In this document: positions 1-11,721 of the stretch, one piece after another
Layout of the letters: each line of letters starts with the position of its first letter
How positions within the stretch are numbered: position 1 is the first letter of the stretch
Source of the DNA: a virus
Lineage: Duplodnaviria; Caudoviricetes
Reading direction: 5' to 3' (one strand)
Length of the DNA: 38,258 bases
IMG/VR virus record: IMGVR_UViG_3300010381_000011
Span: 1 to 38,258 of that record
Translations under genes and position numbers: made by a program
The notes under the pieces: model-generated
Database searches by the model: none
What the model was told of the DNA's origin: nothing
What the model saw: only the letters and a program-made list of their open reading frames with translations

Positions 1-618
1 TTACCCCGCCTCACCCACCGCTTGGTTCTGCCTCGGCGGCTCCAGACGCCGCTTTAACTCTCTGTTTTCTCGCTCTAATTCTTCCATGCGCTTCATCATC
101 TCGTCCGCCTTGGCCTCCCATTCCGCCATGCGCTCTTCGAGGCGCGCCAGCGTTCGCTCGCTCCTCACCGCTTGATGAAAAGCGTTGATATTACTCGCTA
201 AAGCTGTGCGATAGATGGTGTCGGACTCCAAGACTTCGGCCGTCTTGGTCAGCATGTCCGACATCCGAAACTCTTCCTGCGGGGCTGTCAGGAAGGCGTC
301 GGCAGACGGTGCGGATGTATCCCCAGGTTCAGCGGACTCTTTACGGTGCATCGGGCCAACACCTGTGACGAGCCAATCTATTGAAACCTTTGCTACCTCA
401 CCGACAGAAATAAACCACGAAGGCGGAATTTTATTCGCTGCACGTGCCTTGTTGATTGCTTGCCTGCTTATATCCAGAACGGATGCGAGTTCGCCGATAT
501 CATGGCTATTCGTGGCCAGGAGGAGTCGGTGGATGACGGCGTCAACAGGCTTCCGACTTTCAGGGGAGAAGTCGGAAGTTAAGCCGGAAGTGTTATTGTT
601 TACATTATTGTCAATCAT
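1..618 (-). CDS. Phage CI-like repressor (N-terminal HTH, C-terminal coiled coil)
   Basis: ELASVLDISRQAINKARAANKIP...VSIDWLVTGVGPM is a typical CI-type HTH; divergent from the early operon; exact start uncertain. Confidence 0.85.
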   Translation of the reverse strand: MIDNNVNNNTSGLTSDFSPESRKPVDAVIHRLLLATNSHDIGELASVLDISRQAINKARAANKIPPSWFISVGEVAKVSIDWLVTGVGPMHRKESAEPGDTSAPSADAFLTAPQEEFRMSDMLTKTAEVLESDTIYRTALASNINAFHQAVRSERTLARLEERMAEWEAKADEMMKRMEELERENRELKRRLEPPRQNQAVGEAG

Positions 619-2251: not shown

Positions 2252-2256
2252 CCCCT

Positions 2257-2318
2257 TGCGAAACCGCCCCGCGCGGGCGGTCGTCGGACGGTGGCGCGTC
2301 CGGCCTGATGAGCAGCCA
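2257..2318 (+). ncRNA. Type II hammerhead ribozyme (HHR1)
   Basis: GAAA 2260-2263; stem III CCGCCC/GGGCGG; GUC cleavage triplet 2280-2282; stem I GUCGGACG/CGUCCGGC; CUGAUGA 2305-2311; open stem II UGC/GCA; pseudoknot UGGC(loop I)/GCCA(3' tail). Confidence 0.92.
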
Positions 2319-2320
2319 AG

Positions 2321-2980
2321 CTAAATGTCGAGCAATGTGGCCCACTCAGGAATGCCCTTAACAACAAAGTAGACATCCTCGAGACCATCACATGTGTAGG
2401 GAGTAAAAATAACAAGACCAATGTCGAACAACTGCTGAGTTGCTTCGTTGCAAAGCCTAGCGGCGACTGCAACTGAAACAAGTACTTGGCGAAAGCAACC
2501 CAAGGCGAGCCGACGTTTTGCCGGGTACAAAGGAGTAAGATCTAATGAGTAATAATATCGAGACCTCAGAGCTGTCGTCACCTCCAATGCCGCGACAAGA
2601 GATGGAGATGGAAGACCACGCTTACACCAAGCCTTCAACCGCTCCTGTGCATTACGAAGCGGGAAGGGAAGCTCAACAGTATCAACTGCGCGAATATGCT
2701 CCCATTGGTCTGGAAGACTATGTCGAGCTAGTGCGACGCTATGCCCCAGAAATGCTTGTGCAACTTTCCACTGCGACAAAAGACGATGCGCTTTGGGCGA
2801 AAGTTCAAGACCGGGCGCGCTCGGTTTTTTGTAAGGGGGCAAGAAGGTGTTCCGCAGCAAATAGACCCGGCTATCCCCTCTCTTGTGCATTTCAAAAATG
2901 GGCAATGGATAACCTTCGCCTGTTAGGGCTGTCCAATCTGGGACGTTCGGCAGTGGCTCGTTGTCGTCATGCGTTTTCAT
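2321..2980 (-). CDS. Hypothetical protein, reverse-oriented accessory (moron) gene
   Basis: 219 aa; SD GAGGT before ATG; own candidate promoter at 3036-3065; lower GC than flanks; stop 2 nt from HHR1. Confidence 0.6.
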   Translation of the reverse strand: MKTHDDNEPLPNVPDWTALTGEGYPLPIFEMHKRGDSRVYLLRNTFLPPYKKPSAPGLELSPKAHRLLSQWKVAQAFLGHSVALARHSLPDQWEHIRAVDTVELPFPLRNAQERLKAWCKRGLPSPSLVAALEVTTALRSRYYYSLDLTPLYPAKRRLALGCFRQVLVSVAVAARLCNEATQQLFDIGLVIFTPYTCDGLEDVYFVVKGIPEWATLLDI

Positions 2981-3030
2981 TAAACGACCTCATCTCTCTC
3001 ATCGAGGATGTGAATCAGGTGAACATGTAA
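2545..3030 (+). CDS. Possible overlapping hypothetical protein
   Basis: 161 aa with SD AAGGAG upstream of ATG; overlaps the minus-strand ORF by 436 nt. Confidence 0.35.
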   Translation: MSNNIETSELSSPPMPRQEMEMEDHAYTKPSTAPVHYEAGREAQQYQLREYAPIGLEDYVELVRRYAPEMLVQLSTATKDDALWAKVQDRARSVFCKGARRCSAANRPGYPLSCAFQKWAMDNLRLLGLSNLGRSAVARCRHAFSLNDLISLIEDVNQVNM

Positions 3031-3035
3031 CGGGG

Positions 3036-3065
3036 GTTCTATCAGGAGACGTGTTGAATCTTCAA
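3036..3065 (-). promoter_or_regulatory. Candidate sigma70 promoter for 2321..2980
   Basis: Minus strand TTGAAG-18-TAGAAC with TGn extension; homologous to the element at 3661-3690. Confidence 0.5.
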
Positions 3066-3126
3066 GCGAAACCGCCCTGCGCGGGCGGTCGTCGGACGGT
3101 GGCGCGTCCGGCCTGACGAGCAGCCA
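3066..3126 (+). ncRNA. Type II hammerhead ribozyme (HHR2)
   Basis: 60/62 identical to HHR1; GAAA 3068-3071, GUC 3088-3090, CUGACGA 3113-3119; the two differences are in loop III and the variable core position 7. Confidence 0.92.
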
Positions 3127-3142
3127 ACAAAGGAAACGCACT

Positions 3143-3361
3143 ATGGTCGAGAAGCCGCTCAAGGAATGGAATACCTGGGAATGGATTGATGCCGTTGAAG
3201 CCGCCAAGAAAAACATTGCTCCTGTCTTTGAGACAACAAAAGACCAGCGGATTGCCTCGGGGATCGTGGCGCTTTTGGAGTCTGCCGACGATCCGTTGAT
3301 TGTCCTTGAGGCAACCCGCCTCGCTTACGAAAAAATGTGTGGGTATCCTATAAGGTACTAA
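3143..3361 (+). CDS. Hypothetical protein
   Basis: 72 aa; SD AAGGA directly after HHR2. Confidence 0.65.
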   Translation: MVEKPLKEWNTWEWIDAVEAAKKNIAPVFETTKDQRIASGIVALLESADDPLIVLEATRLAYEKMCGYPIRY

Positions 3362-3612
3362 AGATATCCAGCAAGGCAGATATCTTTAGGGAGACCAGAG
3401 TGCTCAATGCAATGCTTGCAAATTAAATATCCTTTGGAGACAGCCCTTCGGGCGGCACTCTCAACACTGGAACCCTTGTTTACAATTTCTATGGCATGCT
3501 TTGCCTTGCCCATTTGCTCTAAGTTGCATGATCCAGTGATGCCGGAACCGATATGAACCTCTTTCGAGTCGTGATTGATGATGAGCAAGTCTTCAATGTT
3601 CGGGTTCAACAT
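3358..3612 (-). CDS. Hypothetical small protein, reverse-oriented (His/Cys, CxxC)
   Basis: 84 aa; SD AGGAG 8 nt before ATG; EVH..C..CKHC suggests metal binding. Confidence 0.65.
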   Translation of the reverse strand: MLNPNIEDLLIINHDSKEVHIGSGITGSCNLEQMGKAKHAIEIVNKGSSVESAARRAVSKGYLICKHCIEHSGLPKDICLAGYL

Positions 3613-3660
3613 TTCCGCGTCTCCTTTGCGGGTTGATGGTTGAAAGGACGGATAACGGAA

Positions 3661-3690
3661 ACCCTATCAGGGGACGCGGAACCTTTTCAA
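3661..3690 (-). promoter_or_regulatory. Candidate sigma70 promoter for 3358..3612
   Basis: Minus strand TTGAAA-18-TAGGGT with TGn extension. Confidence 0.55.
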
Positions 3691-3705
3691 GCGGACGGCG
3701 GCACA

Positions 3706-5811
3706 ATGCAAGACACCTACACGGCAAAATCAATCGCACAGGCGATGGACATCACGGAACGGGCAGCTCGTGCCAAGGCCGAAAAAGATGGTTGGCCCTT
3801 TGAGGAGCAGCCCTGCCGTGGCGGAAAGCGCCGCTTGTATCTTGCCGCCTCCCTCCCTGCCGAAGTCCAGGACGCCCTGACGGCCTCCGAGGGGGTGAAC
3901 CTGCCCGCCGAAGGGGCCGAACTCGCCCTTACCGAGGACCAACGGCGCGGCGCGTTGGCCCGGGCCGATCTGGTGCGACTCTACACCGAAGCCCTGGCCA
4001 AAGCCCCGCGCAAGGGCGCGGCGCAAAAGGAATTTCTCGCTGCCTACCGGGCCGGCGTGTGGCCGAAGATCAAAGAAGTGCTGGGGGATGCGGTGTCCGT
4101 GCAATCCCTGGAGCGCTGGAAGCTCAAGTTGCGCCGCACCGGTTCGGCCCTGGCCCTGGCCGACACACGCGGCGGCGTGCGCGTCGAACCGATTTTGACC
4201 GTGGCCCACCAGACCCTCATCGTTAACCTGGTCCGGCATCCCAACCAGCCCAACATCGCCGAGGTCTGCCGCGATGCCGTGAAATCCTTCAAATCGGCCG
4301 GGCTGCCGCCGTGTGCCGAAATCACCGTCCGCCGTTTCATCGAAAAGTGGATCGCCAACAATTACAGTGAGTTTGTGTACTCCAGGCGGGGCAAGAAGGC
4401 CTGGGTGGACGATTGCTGCCCTTACATCGAACGCGACTACTCGAAGATTCAGGTTGGCGACATCCTGGTGGCCGACGGCCACGTCCTCAACTTTGAGATC
4501 TTGGACCCGGAGACCGGCAAGGGCGCGCGCATGGAGCTGGTGCTCTGGTACGACATGAAGTCGTCGTATCCCCTGGGCTGGGAAATCCTGCCCACGGAAA
4601 ACACGCAAGCCATCGCCTCGGCCTTGCGCCGGGCCTGCCTGCGCCTCGGGAAGTTCCCTCGCATAGCCTACCTGGACAACGGCCGTGCGTTCAAGGGCAA
4701 GTTTTTCATGGGTGTTGATTTCAAGCAAACCGGTCTGGGCGGCGTCTTCCAGGAATTGGGCATCGCCCCAATGATCGCCGAAAAATACCACGGCCAGTCC
4801 AAGACTATCGAACGCTTTTTCGCCTCTTTCGGCGAGCTGGAACGCTGGTGCCCCTCCTACGTCGGCACCTGCATCGAAAACAAGCCTCCCCGACTCAAAC
4901 GCGGCGAGGAACTGCACCGGCGGCTCTACGAAGCCTCGGGCTACCGGCCGCTGACCATCCCCGAAGCCCATACGGCCATCGCCATGTGGTTCGATGAGTA
5001 CGCCCGGCGGCCCCAACGCGGCCACTTGCAAGGCCAGACGCCGCTTGAGGCGTACGCGCCGGGCGCTGGGCCGGGCCTGACCGACGCCGAACTGCTCAAG
5101 CTGCGGTTGTGCATGATGCACAAACGCATCCGTCAGATCGAGCAGAACGGGGTCAGCATTTTCGGACGGCATTACCGCCACCCCTTCCTCCACAGTCTCC
5201 GCCACCCGGTGCTGGTCCGCTACGACGACCAGGACCGGCGGTCCGTGCTGATCTACGACGAGACGGGCAAGCGGCTGATCTGCGAGGCCACGCCGGTGCC
5301 GAACACCGTGCATCCGGCCGCCGGCATCCTGGGCACGGAGGAGGACAAGGCGCTCCTGGCCTCCGAGCTCGCCTACAAAAAGGCCATCGAAAATCAGGCC
5401 ACGGCCTCCGCCCGGGAATTTTTGGATGCCGTGGTGCTGCCGGAGACGCGACAGCGCATGCGGCTGGTCGAGGCGGCCAAGGCCGAACCGGCCGCCCTGC
5501 CGGAACCGCCGGCCCCCAACGTCAAAAGCATCGAAGCCGCCAAGAGCGCGGCCCGGGCCAAGCTCGACGCCGCCCCGGCCTACGTGCCGCCGGCGCAACT
5601 ACCCAATATCGTAACAGAACTTGATCGTTACGAATACCTTTTCAACGTGTCCGTCCGGGACGGCGTGGACCTCCGTGAGGCCGATGCCGACTGGATGGCT
5701 CGTTACGAGCAAACCGAGGAATACGCGGCGTGCGCGCGGGGCCGTTTCGAGGGCCTGCGCCGGGTCTACGCGCGCCGCCGCATGGCCGCCAACGGGGAGG
5801 AGGCTTCATGA
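3706..5811 (+). CDS. muA: Mu-type DDE transposase (MuA-like)
   Basis: N-terminal Mu HTH (GGKRRLYLAASLPAEVQ); DDE motifs VADGH, YLDNG, KTIERFF; C-terminal VLVRYD Mu transposase region; ATG 3706 preferred. Confidence 0.95.
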   Translation: MQDTYTAKSIAQAMDITERAARAKAEKDGWPFEEQPCRGGKRRLYLAASLPAEVQDALTASEGVNLPAEGAELALTEDQRRGALARADLVRLYTEALAKAPRKGAAQKEFLAAYRAGVWPKIKEVLGDAVSVQSLERWKLKLRRTGSALALADTRGGVRVEPILTVAHQTLIVNLVRHPNQPNIAEVCRDAVKSFKSAGLPPCAEITVRRFIEKWIANNYSEFVYSRRGKKAWVDDCCPYIERDYSKIQVGDILVADGHVLNFEILDPETGKGARMELVLWYDMKSSYPLGWEILPTENTQAIASALRRACLRLGKFPRIAYLDNGRAFKGKFFMGVDFKQTGLGGVFQELGIAPMIAEKYHGQSKTIERFFASFGELERWCPSYVGTCIENKPPRLKRGEELHRRLYEASGYRPLTIPEAHTAIAMWFDEYARRPQRGHLQGQTPLEAYAPGAGPGLTDAELLKLRLCMMHKRIRQIEQNGVSIFGRHYRHPFLHSLRHPVLVRYDDQDRRSVLIYDETGKRLICEATPVPNTVHPAAGILGTEEDKALLASELAYKKAIENQATASAREFLDAVVLPETRQRMRLVEAAKAEPAALPEPPAPNVKSIEAAKSAARAKLDAAPAYVPPAQLPNIVTELDRYEYLFNVSVRDGVDLREADADWMARYEQTEEYAACARGRFEGLRRVYARRRMAANGEEAS

Positions 5812-7854: not shown

Positions 7855-8126
7855 ACAAGGCGGAACTTGTTGACGATTTGGCCGGGCACGAGGGCCTTAG
7901 CAAGGCCCAGACGGAGCGCGTGCTGGACACGCTGTCACGAAGCATCACCGAGGCGTTGCGCGCCGGCAACAAGGTGGTGTTGCCGGGCCTGGGGCACCTG
8001 GAACCCGTGACCCGCAAGGGACACTGGGGGCGCAATCCCCGCACCGGGGAGCGGCTTTATATCCAGGACACGCGGGGCGTGGCCTTCCGGCCGGGGAAAG
8101 CCCTCAAGGACGCTCTTAAATCCTGA
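7851..8126 (+). CDS. HU/IHF family DNA-binding protein
   Basis: MNKAELVD..., GRNPRTGE, FRPGKALKDAL. Confidence 0.93.
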   Translation: MNKAELVDDLAGHEGLSKAQTERVLDTLSRSITEALRAGNKVVLPGLGHLEPVTRKGHWGRNPRTGERLYIQDTRGVAFRPGKALKDALKS

Positions 8127-8189
8127 TGCGAAACCGCCCCGCGCGGGCGGTCGTCTCGGCGTGGCGGCCGAGGCCTGATGAGCAGCCAC
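8127..8189 (+). ncRNA. Type II hammerhead ribozyme (HHR3)
   Basis: GAAA 8130-8133, GUC 8150-8152, stem I GUCUCGGC/GCCGAGGC (compensatory changes versus HHR1/2), CUGAUGA 8175-8181, pseudoknot GUGGC/GCCAC. Confidence 0.93.
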
Positions 8190-8198
8190 GGATACCAT

Positions 8199-10509: not shown

Positions 10510-10952
10510 GCGGGGTCTTTGACGATCTGCTGCGGCTGTTGTCCCGGGGGTGGGTGCCGTATTACGGTCGGGTCGAGGGACGCGTGTATGAGCAGTTGGG
10601 GTGCGCCAAGTCGCGTCAGGCCCGGTGGATGGTGCGTGATGGTATGTATGTCTGCCTGGGTTGCGGCAAGCGGTGCAGTCTGGCCAATCCTGCCGGGTTC
10701 GAACTCTTGTTGCCGGTGACGAAGAGGACAAGGAATTTCGTTTATGCGGCTTTACCCGCCGTTTCCGCGCACGATCTACTGACGAAAAAAATGCTGCTTA
10801 CAGTTCCCGAGGTGTCCTTTATTTTGAGTATAAGTGATCGGAAAGTGTACGAATTAGTAGATGAAGGGCGGTTGGAGCGTCATCCCGATCTGCCTATTCG
10901 TGTCACGGCCGAAAGTGTACGGCGTGAGGCGGCGCGGCTCAAAGAGGGGTAG
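10506..10952 (+). CDS. Zn-finger plus MerR/Xis-like HTH protein, candidate late-gene activator
   Basis: C..CLGCGKRC and LLTVPEVSFILSISDRKVYELVDEGRL; last early gene, at the position of Mu C/Mor. Confidence 0.7.
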   Translation: MSGVFDDLLRLLSRGWVPYYGRVEGRVYEQLGCAKSRQARWMVRDGMYVCLGCGKRCSLANPAGFELLLPVTKRTRNFVYAALPAVSAHDLLTKKMLLTVPEVSFILSISDRKVYELVDEGRLERHPDLPIRVTAESVRREAARLKEG

Positions 10953-11002
10953 CGAGACAGTTGATTGCCCTCTTAAATAGCGTATACGTAGAATCCGAGT
11001 TG

Positions 11003-11467
11003 TTATTTCTTATGTTTCTTTCGTATTATTATTTGACTAGAGTCACATGTTTGCATGAATAATTCCTTCCGGTTCTTTTCTTGCTCTTTCTTGATTACGT
11101 CATGACTTTGACGGCATAATATCGAGTCTGCCGCTTCTTTTGACATCTTTTTTTTGATAATATAGACAATATTACTTTGACATTTGCATTTATTGCACGG
11201 ATAATTATTCCTAAATTTTCTATATATAATACGAAAATTTGTATCCAATTGGAATATATTTTTTATATATTCCAGACTAATATTATTTGTGTGTTTGCAA
11301 TGTTTACATACGACAAACAGCCCATCAATAAAATCTTGAATAAAATACAATGACAAAGAAAAATCAACCCTAAATTCATAAGGCCTTTGGCGTGTATGTT
11401 CTTTTGTGTAATTATCATTACAGACAGACCACCGTTGAAAATTTCGAGAAACTGTTTTGTAGGCCAT
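11003..11467 (-). CDS. AT-rich hypothetical accessory protein
   Basis: 154 aa; SD GAGG; two CxxC motifs; strongly AT-rich island. Confidence 0.6.
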   Translation of the reverse strand: MAYKTVSRNFQRWSVCNDNYTKEHTRQRPYEFRVDFSLSLYFIQDFIDGLFVVCKHCKHTNNISLEYIKNIFQLDTNFRIIYRKFRNNYPCNKCKCQSNIVYIIKKKMSKEAADSILCRQSHDVIKKEQEKNRKELFMQTCDSSQIIIRKKHKK

Positions 11468-11600
11468 TTATTACCTCAATAAAAGATAGTATTATAAGAC
11501 AACTCCATTGCTGGCGCTCAATCAACAATTTCGACATAAGATAATCAGTAAAATCGGAGCCAATGCTCACCATAGAATCTGTCGATTATATTTTTAATAT

Positions 11601-11629
11601 AAGTTATGCGTTGATTGGCCATGGGTCAA
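11601..11629 (-). promoter_or_regulatory. Candidate sigma70 promoter for 11003..11467
   Basis: Minus strand TTGACC-17-TAACTT. Confidence 0.45.
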
Positions 11630-11721
11630 GGGGCCTTAGCGCTGAAGGCACCCTCTTAGATGAAAATGCCTAATATCACAGAGACACACTACCGCCTTTG
11701 TGTCTCCATTACGGGTGACGA

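What the first reader, a model, noticed from the sequence alone, without database searches (positions are those of the whole stretch)
2283..3090. 808-nt cassette between two hammerheads with overlapping opposite-strand ORFs: possible excised or circular RNA
Seen: HHR1 and HHR2 are same-orientation repeats (60/62 identical). They enclose a lower-GC segment with a 219-aa minus ORF (SD GAGGT, own promoter, stop 2 nt from HHR1) and a 161-aa plus ORF (SD AAGGAG) that overlap by 436 nt in different registers. Known: tandem hammerheads release a monomer with 5'-OH and 2',3'-cyclic phosphate, which can be circularised (retrozymes, viroids, RtcB). Inference: lytic transcription would release an 808-nt RNA whose ligated ends rebuild one intact hammerhead. 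It would be fully antisense to the lysogen-oriented 219-aa gene and could silence it, encode its antagonist (toxin/antitoxin or defence pair), or both. At the DNA level the repeats could also act as recombination points for cassette gain or loss.
Basis: partly seen in the sequence, partly recalled or inferred. Interest (0 to 1): 0.82.

Follow-up and report, generated by a model that had tools for sequence, protein, structure and literature searches.

The report
Overlapping antisense effector–inhibitor phage genes
A Mu-like phage carries two reading frames on opposite strands of the same 436 bases, an overlap kept open in distant relatives, whose proteins are predicted to bind each other and likely act as a prophage defence factor and its off-switch; the self-cleaving RNA motifs around them are ordinary and a circular RNA is unsupported.

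Summary
The sequence features are real, but the novelty is the gene overlap, not the hammerheads. Both hammerheads are Rfam type II motifs of a standard module in these Mu-like phages; HHR1's core is identical at 6 of 117 other sites. Hammerheads flanking prophage genes are in print (Perreault 2011; circles not detected), and this scan noted a single one before MuA elsewhere. Nine relatives have one hammerhead at this slot, and five distant loci with the same cargo have none. The 219-aa minus gene belongs to an unnamed family (21 representatives). Its antisense 161-aa frame is stop-free over the overlap in 5 of 6 DNA loci; the sixth carries a frameshift. A dipeptide that forces a stop in that frame occurs 0 of 126 times inside the overlap and 27 of 142 outside. 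Both ribosome-binding sites recur in distant loci, and wobble positions are constrained only under the plus protein's folded core. The two proteins are predicted to bind (ipSAE 0.70, best control 0.00). Best reading: a lysogen-side effector with a lytic-side protein inhibitor, working like Tha/Ith but without its HEPN motif. Function is inferred, not shown.

The parts
2256..2321 (+). HHR1, type II hammerhead; predicted cut after 2282; lies right after the stop of ORF 1757-2251
   Evidence: Rfam RF02276 63.6 bits; stem II 4 bp
2321..2980 (-). m219: 219-aa gene of an unnamed family, same orientation as the repressor; proposed lysogen-side effector
   Evidence: 21 representatives; 12 of 18 listed changes outside the overlap are synonymous; AF2 pLDDT 82.9, pTM 0.80
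2530..2537 (+). Ribosome-binding site of p161, lying in the codons of the conserved m219 motif S-[LF]-D-L-T-P
   Evidence: AAGGAGTA + 7 nt + ATG in both the window and L158; 20 of 23 family members compatible with an antisense ATG here
2545..3030 (+). p161: 161-aa antisense-overlapping gene in early-operon orientation; disordered N-terminus, helical core from about residue 53; proposed inhibitor
   Evidence: Frame kept open across the family; AF2 core pLDDT 70-89; predicted complex with m219
2987..2991 (-). Ribosome-binding site of m219 (GAGGT, 6 nt before ATG), lying inside p161
   Evidence: Same GAGGT + 6 nt + ATG in L158 and L159
3028..3068 (-). Diverged copy of the MuA leader with a leftward promoter-like motif (-35-like 3060-3065, -10-like 3036-3041, 18-nt spacer); joins HHR2 at a shared short end
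   Evidence: 28 of 41 identical to 3653-3693 (my count); motif in 5 of 5 relatives with antisense cargo, 0 of 6 without
3064..3129 (+). HHR2, type II hammerhead; predicted cut after 3090; heads the next module (SD and ATG at 3143)
   Evidence: Rfam 63.3 bits; stem II 2 bp, 4-bp pseudoknot
3143..3361 (+). 72-aa sense gene of the second module
   Evidence: no family match
3358..3612 (-). 84-aa antisense gene of the second module
   Evidence: same slot layout in L002, L003, L015, L029
3653..3693 (.). Canonical MuA leader with the leftward promoter-like motif
3706..5811 (+). MuA transposase (context)
   Evidence: Pfam Mu-transpos_C E 1e-11
1..618 (-). CI-type repressor (context; defines the lysogen orientation)
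   Evidence: Pfam Phage_CI_repr E 2e-7
8126..8191 (+). HHR3, third type II hammerhead after the HU-like gene
   Evidence: Rfam 75.5 bits

Best explanation
The cassette is a conserved pair of reading frames overlapping on opposite strands in the early region of Mu-like phages, whose products are predicted to bind, and it likely works as an immunity switch: m219 would be made in the lysogen as a defence or toxic effector, and p161 would be made on induction to neutralise it. Steps. (1) Shown by sequence comparison: both frames, both start sites and the register are kept in homologs at about 20-28% identity. (2) Inferred: m219 is transcribed leftward from the promoter-like motif in the MuA leader, which the repressor would not shut off, while p161 is read from the rightward early transcript. 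(3) Inferred: induction turns m219 down by opposing transcription and supplies p161, which binds existing m219. (4) Inferred: in this phage the two hammerheads cut the early transcript into an 808-nt linear p161 message, an incidental result of two hammerhead-headed modules having been stacked; the pair does not need them. The overlap makes effector and inhibitor hard to separate when the module moves.
For: m219 is a real gene: 21 representatives with conserved polar residues N44, Y50, H65, K72, N178; 12 of 18 listed changes outside the overlap synonymous, p 9e-4. The p161 frame is kept open: no stop over m219 residues 20-144 in 5 of 6 DNA loci where 4-9 are expected, P 0.009 or less each; F-[IMTNK], which forces a stop in that frame, occurs 0 of 126 times in residues 25-145 of 21 proteins against 27 of 142 beyond, and first appears at 146-152, just past the p161 start; 2 of 55 unrelated control ORFs have this frame open that far. 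m219 wobble identity is 0.46 under the p161 core, 0.30 under its disordered part and 0.285 outside; bootstrap P 0.0002. Synonymous rate of m219 in a 95%-identical variant is 0.077 inside against 0.224 outside, p 0.015. Both SD sites recur. Complex prediction: ipSAE 0.70 against best control 0.00; mark reached by 116 of 157 solved and 2 of 215 mismatched pairs (counts hold only roughly with my alignments); runs agree in at least 68% of contacts, partner pLDDT at least 72; none of the 25 best contacts pairs residues encoded by the same bases (my check). All 6 loci place p161 in the direction of ner or MuA. Patchy presence, 2 of 401 genomes in a family-level draw, fits an accessory module. Precedent: Tha/Ith (PMC11087260) and Fc02 olg1/gene 10 (PMC9936078).
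Against: Nothing shows that m219 is toxic or antiviral: no match in Pfam, PADLOC, PHROGs or NCBIfam, and the HEPN R-X4-6-H motif is present in only 3 of 23. Which protein is effector and which inhibitor rests on orientation alone. Expression of neither gene is shown. In the close variant p161 itself takes 13 non-synonymous against 3 synonymous changes, one at a residue invariant in the 5-row alignment; this is partly forced, because its synonymous sites are second positions of m219. The p161 alignment has only 5 rows from the same loci as m219, so coupled signal cannot be fully excluded. L159 carries a frameshift that appears to break both genes. The promoter motif scores below the scan threshold and the copy serving m219 here is diverged.
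Confidence: 0.45

Rival explanations
1. The pair is real and binds, but it regulates the phage's own life cycle (repressor, Ner or MuA/MuB activity, transposition timing) instead of acting in defence.
For: All 6 loci lie between the switch genes and MuA or right beside MuA; no defence-library match.
Against: Absent from all 19 closer relatives found through gene 818, which carry nothing or unrelated cargo in the same slot; no nucleic-acid-binding fold recognised.
Confidence: 0.2
2. Roles reversed: p161 is an early lytic effector against the host, and m219 is the antidote that protects the lysogen from leaky early transcription.
For: Same overlap and binding evidence; p161 is in the early-operon direction.
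Against: m219 is the more constrained partner (second-position identity 0.55 against 0.46) and carries invariant polar residues suggestive of a functional site.
Confidence: 0.13
3. Two independent accessory proteins share DNA, for example two exclusion factors for the two phases as in phage Fc02, and the predicted complex is false.
For: Fc02 olg1 and gene 10 overlap antisense after ner and each excludes phages (PMC9936078, section read).
Against: Complex score 0.70 against 0.00, and the partner's pLDDT falls to 46 with an unrelated chain; no clear membrane segment in either family.
Confidence: 0.1
4. One reading: the 808-nt fragment is ligated to a circle that is the working regulator or a stable p161 message.
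For: Both cores intact; a ligated junction would keep core, stems I and III and a 2-bp stem II.
Against: Pair lacks hammerheads in 5 of 5 distant loci; contigs from 3 runs of 3 studies leave the cassette into the ordinary leader; no unusual fold; circles were looked for and not found in other tandem prophage hammerheads (PMC3088659).
Confidence: 0.07
5. The plus frame is kept open only in cis, so that ribosomes cover the early transcript on its way to MuA; the protein has no role.
For: p161 sequences are only 16-27% identical and the N-terminus is free to vary.
Against: Position-specific constraint under the folded core and the predicted interface; 224 nt of the same transcript are untranslated anyway.
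Confidence: 0.05

Closest known systems
Tha/Ith of Staphylococcus aureus prophages (Rostol et al. 2024, PMC11087260; abstract and passages read)
   Same: A lysogen-expressed gene paired with an antisense gene whose protein inhibits it on induction; mutually exclusive transcription (noncontiguous operon).
   Different: Tha is a HEPN RNase and ith-1 is a 201-nt gene with its own promoter inside the cI operon. Here the HEPN motif is not conserved, the coding frames share 436 nt with each start site inside the other gene, and the layout is inverted (the effector candidate is the antisense gene inside the early operon). Activity here is untested.
olg1 (sie1) / gene 10 of Pseudomonas phage Fc02 (PMC9936078; abstract, passages and section 3.4 read)
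   Same: Opposite-strand overlapping genes next to ner in a temperate phage; one read in the lysogen, one in the early lytic operon.
   Different: Olg1 is 7.9 kDa, each protein excludes phages alone, and no binding was reported in what I read. No tblastn match of either family in the phage collection; I did not check that Fc02 is held there.
Clustered type II hammerheads in prophages (Rfam RF02276; Perreault et al. 2011, PMC3088659; passages and one results section read)
   Same: Several hammerheads flank single genes or short blocks, with changing gene identity; proposed to cut long transcripts.
   Different: Here the enclosed unit is an antisense-overlapping pair; in 10 of 11 other close pairs surveyed the longest enclosed ORF is on the sense strand.
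Long antisense overlapping genes olg1/tle3 and olg2/PA1383 of Pseudomonas aeruginosa (PMC8850804; abstract and one section read)
   Same: Long antisense frame with stop depletion and position-specific constraint.
   Different: Those are longer, shown to be translated, and limited roughly to one species; this overlap is kept among proteins about 20-28% identical and the two products are predicted to bind.
Retrozymes and viroid-like circular RNAs (search listing only; otherwise recalled)
   Same: Two same-sense hammerheads several hundred nt apart.
   Different: Here the unit is protein-coding on both strands, not unusually structured, single-copy, and its cargo mostly occurs without the hammerhead pair.

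Membership tests
Type II hammerhead (RF02276) | Score above the gathering threshold, full model length | tested here: met
   63.6 and 63.3 bits against 37, model 1-66
Type II hammerhead (RF02276) | Core CUGANGA / GAAA / NUH, closed stems I and III, open stem II of 2 or more pairs, loop I-tail pseudoknot | tested here: met
   Cores intact; stem I 8 bp; stem II 4 and 2 bp; 4-bp pseudoknot
Type II hammerhead (RF02276) | Self-cleavage | not testable with these tools
   Needs in vitro transcription
Clustered prophage hammerheads (Perreault 2011) | Several hammerheads flanking variable genes in a prophage | tested here: met
   3 in the window; 11 other close pairs with varied cargo; 103 of 115 follow a stop codon directly (chance 7.6%) and 86 of 115 precede an ATG by 8-24 nt (chance 12.5%)
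Retrozyme / viroid-like circular RNA | Hammerhead pair is an obligate part of the element (recalled) | tested here: not met
   No Rfam hit in 5 of 5 distant loci; close relatives join the ordinary leader
Retrozyme / viroid-like circular RNA | Compact, highly paired monomer (recalled) | tested here: not met
   Circular MFE -254 against -257 +/- 7 in 20 shuffles, z +0.4
Retrozyme / viroid-like circular RNA | Circular RNA detected in cells | tested here: inconclusive
   Only contigs available; the repeat makes a back-junction ambiguous
Long antisense overlapping gene pair | Stop codons depleted in the antisense frame across homologs | tested here: met
Long antisense overlapping gene pair | Codon-position constraint from both frames; conserved start signals | tested here: met
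Long antisense overlapping gene pair | Both frames translated | not testable with these tools
   Needs ribosome profiling or proteomics
Tha/Ith | HEPN R-X4-6-H motif in the effector | tested here: not met
   An R 5-7 residues before the invariant H65 in 3 of 23
Tha/Ith | HEPN fold | tested here: inconclusive
   No clear fold match for the m219 model
Tha/Ith | Antisense gene in lytic orientation paired with a lysogen-oriented gene | tested here: met
   Orientation in 6 of 6 loci
Tha/Ith | Anti-phage activity, blocked by the partner protein | not testable with these tools
   Binding is predicted only
Fc02 olg1 / gene 10 | Sequence homology | tested here: inconclusive
   No tblastn match in 50,697 phage records; presence of Fc02 in the collection not checked

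The most novel reading that the evidence does not exclude
A new prophage defence or toxin-antitoxin system in which two proteins with no recognised fold, effector and inhibitor, are encoded on opposite strands of the same DNA with each ribosome-binding site inside the other gene, an old dual-coding module of Mu-like phages of sulfate reducers; in this phage a hammerhead pair would additionally cut out the inhibitor's message as a separate 808-nt RNA that is fully antisense to the effector gene.
Probability: 0.4. Interest if true: 0.85.

Novelty: new variant of a known kind. Interest (0 to 1): 0.7.

Why it matters
Well-supported long antisense overlaps in prokaryotes are few, and the two cases I read in detail are limited to about one species. 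This one is kept across proteins about 20-28% identical, with clean statistical signs on both strands and a predicted complex between the two products. Gene callers report only one strand of it (the plus ORF was called for this genome, the minus ORF for the relatives), so such pairs would be missed, and a toxic partner could be cloned with its antidote unnoticed. It gives a direct test of how prophages avoid their own immunity, two candidate new folds, and a simple screen (forced-stop dipeptide depletion) for other hidden antisense genes. The hammerhead part adds a dataset for the open question of what phage hammerheads do, but is known in kind.

Tried and rejected
RNA evidence: run X1 is labelled RNA and holds the cassette, but only as contigs covering the whole region at similar depth (342 against 398 and 295 on the flanks), from the same sample as the possible source DNA; no back-joint is listed, and the repeat would blur one. 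It shows neither expression nor a circle. Local duplication as the origin of the hammerhead pair: rejected, since identical cores occur in other phages and HHR2 is preceded by a diverged MuA leader. p161 as a mere shadow ORF: my reading after (no homolog but itself; no synonymous excess), dropped. LemA-like reading of the YNE motif (recalled): no Pfam, PDB-sequence or fold support. Fold searches: no Foldseek match at E 0.001 or better; best Z 4.9 for m219 and 4.3 for p161; this does not prove new folds. ESM Atlas: no usable hit. L034 and L160 were chance hits and were dropped; P0009 (47-aa fragment) was left out of the alignment; P0001 and P0002 were left out of the dipeptide count as too close. 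No close m219 locus in viral, genome or metagenome scans. Phylum-level draws found nothing: 0 of 401 for m219, 0 of 351 for p161, without a positive control; genus draws gave no new locus. Whole-record search of L158 and L159 found no RF02276, but no control rang. Literature: no paper on this family or on hammerheads of these phages in searches; none in the scan's notes. Supplements were not read and subscription papers are not covered.

Full report
Setting. The window is a whole 38-kb virus record with a Mu-like early region: CI-type repressor (1-618, minus), a regulator at 818, a small HTH gene at 1249 (Ner-like by position), MuA (3706-5811), an AAA protein, Gam and an HU-like gene. Named genomes that share its hammerhead pattern are often Desulfovibrionaceae, so a sulfate-reducing host is likely.

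Observation. All described features are present. Rfam finds three type II hammerheads; the first two form the 60/62 repeat 808 nt apart; the ORFs of 219 aa (minus, m219) and 161 aa (plus, p161) overlap by 436 nt.

The hammerheads are a standard module. A pattern survey of all fetched loci gave 115 distinct hammerheads with enough flank: 103 follow a stop codon directly (chance 7.6%) and 86 precede an ATG by 8-24 nt (chance 12.5%). The loci were picked by hammerhead pattern or by gene 818, so this describes this phage group only. HHR1's core is identical at 6 of 117 other sites, so near-identity of HHR1 and HHR2 needs no local duplication. Eleven other close pairs enclose varied genes, sense-oriented in 10. 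Perreault et al. 2011 already describe hammerheads flanking variable genes in prophages, show cleavage in vitro for three such arrangements, and report that spliced or circular products were not detected (PMC3088659).

How the pair arose. Nine distinct relatives have one hammerhead at this slot: 4 lead almost straight to MuA, 5 enclose unrelated cargo that always includes an antisense gene. A leader motif with a leftward promoter-like arrangement is present in those 5 and absent from 6 of 6 loci without antisense cargo. The 41 nt before HHR2 are a diverged copy of that leader (28 of 41, my count) that runs into the hammerhead at a shared short end. Contigs from runs X6, X12 and X17, about 95% identical to the cassette, leave it at 3033 into the canonical leader, and an X6 contig joins 3027 to 3653; only 24-30 letters beyond the joint are visible, so absence of HHR2 there is inferred. 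The simplest history is two modules stacked in one slot, each headed by a hammerhead.

m219 is a real gene. It has two full-length homologs at 75% and 69% and 21 representatives among 1.84 billion proteins; the 4 of 10 looked up that carry a name are hypothetical proteins of Desulfobacterota-type organisms. Outside the overlap, 12 of 18 listed differences in the X6 variant are synonymous (expected fraction 0.285, p 9e-4; that table listed 33 of 41 differences). The model is confident (pLDDT 82.9, pTM 0.80) with no clear structural match and no family match.

p161 is real too. At first it looked like a shadow: no homolog but itself and no synonymous excess. Distant loci changed this. L156, L157, L158, L159 and L161 all carry a long antisense ORF in the same register; L158 encodes the P0014 sequence, so it is not independent of the protein alignment. 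Over m219 residues 20-144 that frame has no stop in 5 of 6 loci where 4-9 are expected; L159 has one, next to a frameshift that also breaks its m219 homolog. L156's ORF runs off the contig end. From proteins alone: Phe followed by I, M, T, N or K forces a stop in this frame; it occurs 0 of 126 times in residues 25-145 of 21 family members (about 23 expected; 83 distinct events over 45 columns), 27 of 142 times beyond, and 107 of 504 times in control ORFs. The first forced stops fall at 146-152, just past the p161 start. The conserved m219 motif there encodes the antisense SD and ATG: the window and L158 share AAGGAGTA, 7 nt, ATG, and 20 of 23 members are compatible with the ATG. The m219 SD in turn lies inside p161 and recurs in L158 and L159. 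Wobble positions of m219 are 46% identical under the p161 core, 30% under its N-terminal part and 28.5% outside (P 0.0002 without L161, 0.0016 with it), which matches the p161 model, disordered to residue 52 and helical after. In the close variant the synonymous rate of m219 drops threefold in the overlap (p 0.015). Against: p161 takes 13 non-synonymous and 3 synonymous changes in that variant, and translation is not shown.

The pair does not need hammerheads. None of the five distant loci has an Rfam hit. All lie beside MuA or just after ner-like genes, with p161 in the early direction and m219 in the opposite one.

Binding. The complex of m219 (24-219) and p161 (40-161) scored 0.70 (runs 0.72, 0.59, 0.70) against a best control of 0.00; the mark was reached by 116 of 157 solved complexes and 2 of 215 mismatched pairs, counts that hold only roughly with my alignments; runs agree in at least 68% of contacts and partner pLDDT is at least 72. 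The best contacts join m219 203-213, which lies outside the overlap, to p161 49-66, and none of the 25 best pairs links residues encoded by the same bases. With no solved relative found for either chain, a pass from memory is unlikely. It remains a model, not a measurement.

Mechanism. Opposite orientation, predicted binding and patchy presence (2 of 401 genomes) fit a lysogen-side effector with a lytic-side inhibitor. Tha/Ith is the functional precedent (PMC11087260; noncontiguous operons in PMC11034616, passages), and Fc02 olg1/gene 10 is the positional one (PMC9936078). m219 lacks the HEPN motif (3 of 23), so it is not filed as Tha. My odds: overlap real about 0.9, binding about 0.7, defence effector plus inhibitor about 0.45. 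In this phage, cleavage at both hammerheads would free a linear 808-nt p161 message antisense to all of m219; a circle is possible chemically but nothing supports it. A review passage notes that the roles of bacterial and phage ribozymes remain largely unknown (PMC6765202, passages).

Novelty. Hammerhead clusters in prophages are known. I found no description of either protein family or of this overlap in eight paper searches or in the scan's notes; supplements and subscription papers were not seen. The long antisense overlaps in PMC8850804 (abstract and one section) are roughly species-restricted. Verdict: a new variant of a known kind, interest 0.7, with the value resting on the overlapping pair.

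Noticed in passing
window 8126-8191: Third type II hammerhead, directly after the HU-like gene and 11 nt before the next ATG; this second site is occupied in most relatives.
   Followed up: partly
window 2258-2317; L005, L014, L022, L031, L066: The hammerhead core is letter-identical among phages whose MuA proteins are only 25-76% identical, which suggests these motifs also serve as shared recombination boundaries for gene shuffling.
   Followed up: partly
L025:1294-3683; also L099, L136: Hammerhead plus 342-aa gene units in tandem at 1160-nt spacing; the two units in L025 are 89% identical, differing mainly in the C-terminal part.
   Followed up: no
window 3143-3612; L002, L003, L015, L029, L031 before MuA: A variable slot: small sense gene converging on an antisense gene that follows a conserved leader with a leftward promoter-like motif; cargo differs in every phage and may include further defence genes.
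   Followed up: partly
L002:5225-5899: The 215-aa antisense cargo is overlapped by a 201-aa plus ORF, but in the codon-aligned frame that is often open by chance (10 of 58 controls) and without a clear SD.
   Followed up: no
window 3358-3612 (-): The 84-aa ORF ends in a G-Y-x2-C-x2-C motif reminiscent of Ada-type metal-binding regions (recalled; only a weak zinc-ribbon Pfam hit, E 0.036).
   Followed up: no
window 2256-2282 (-): Read on the minus strand, stem III of HHR1 is a GC hairpin followed by a short U run right after the m219 stop; it could act as a weak terminator for the antisense transcript. Not flagged by the terminator scan.
   Followed up: no
window 10800-11700: AT-rich stretch (GC about 0.29) with a 154-aa minus-strand ORF at 11003-11467, likely another accessory gene.
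   Followed up: no
L004:8516-8584; L002:10535-10602: Hammerhead copies with altered cores, possibly inactive, at the post-HU site.
   Followed up: no
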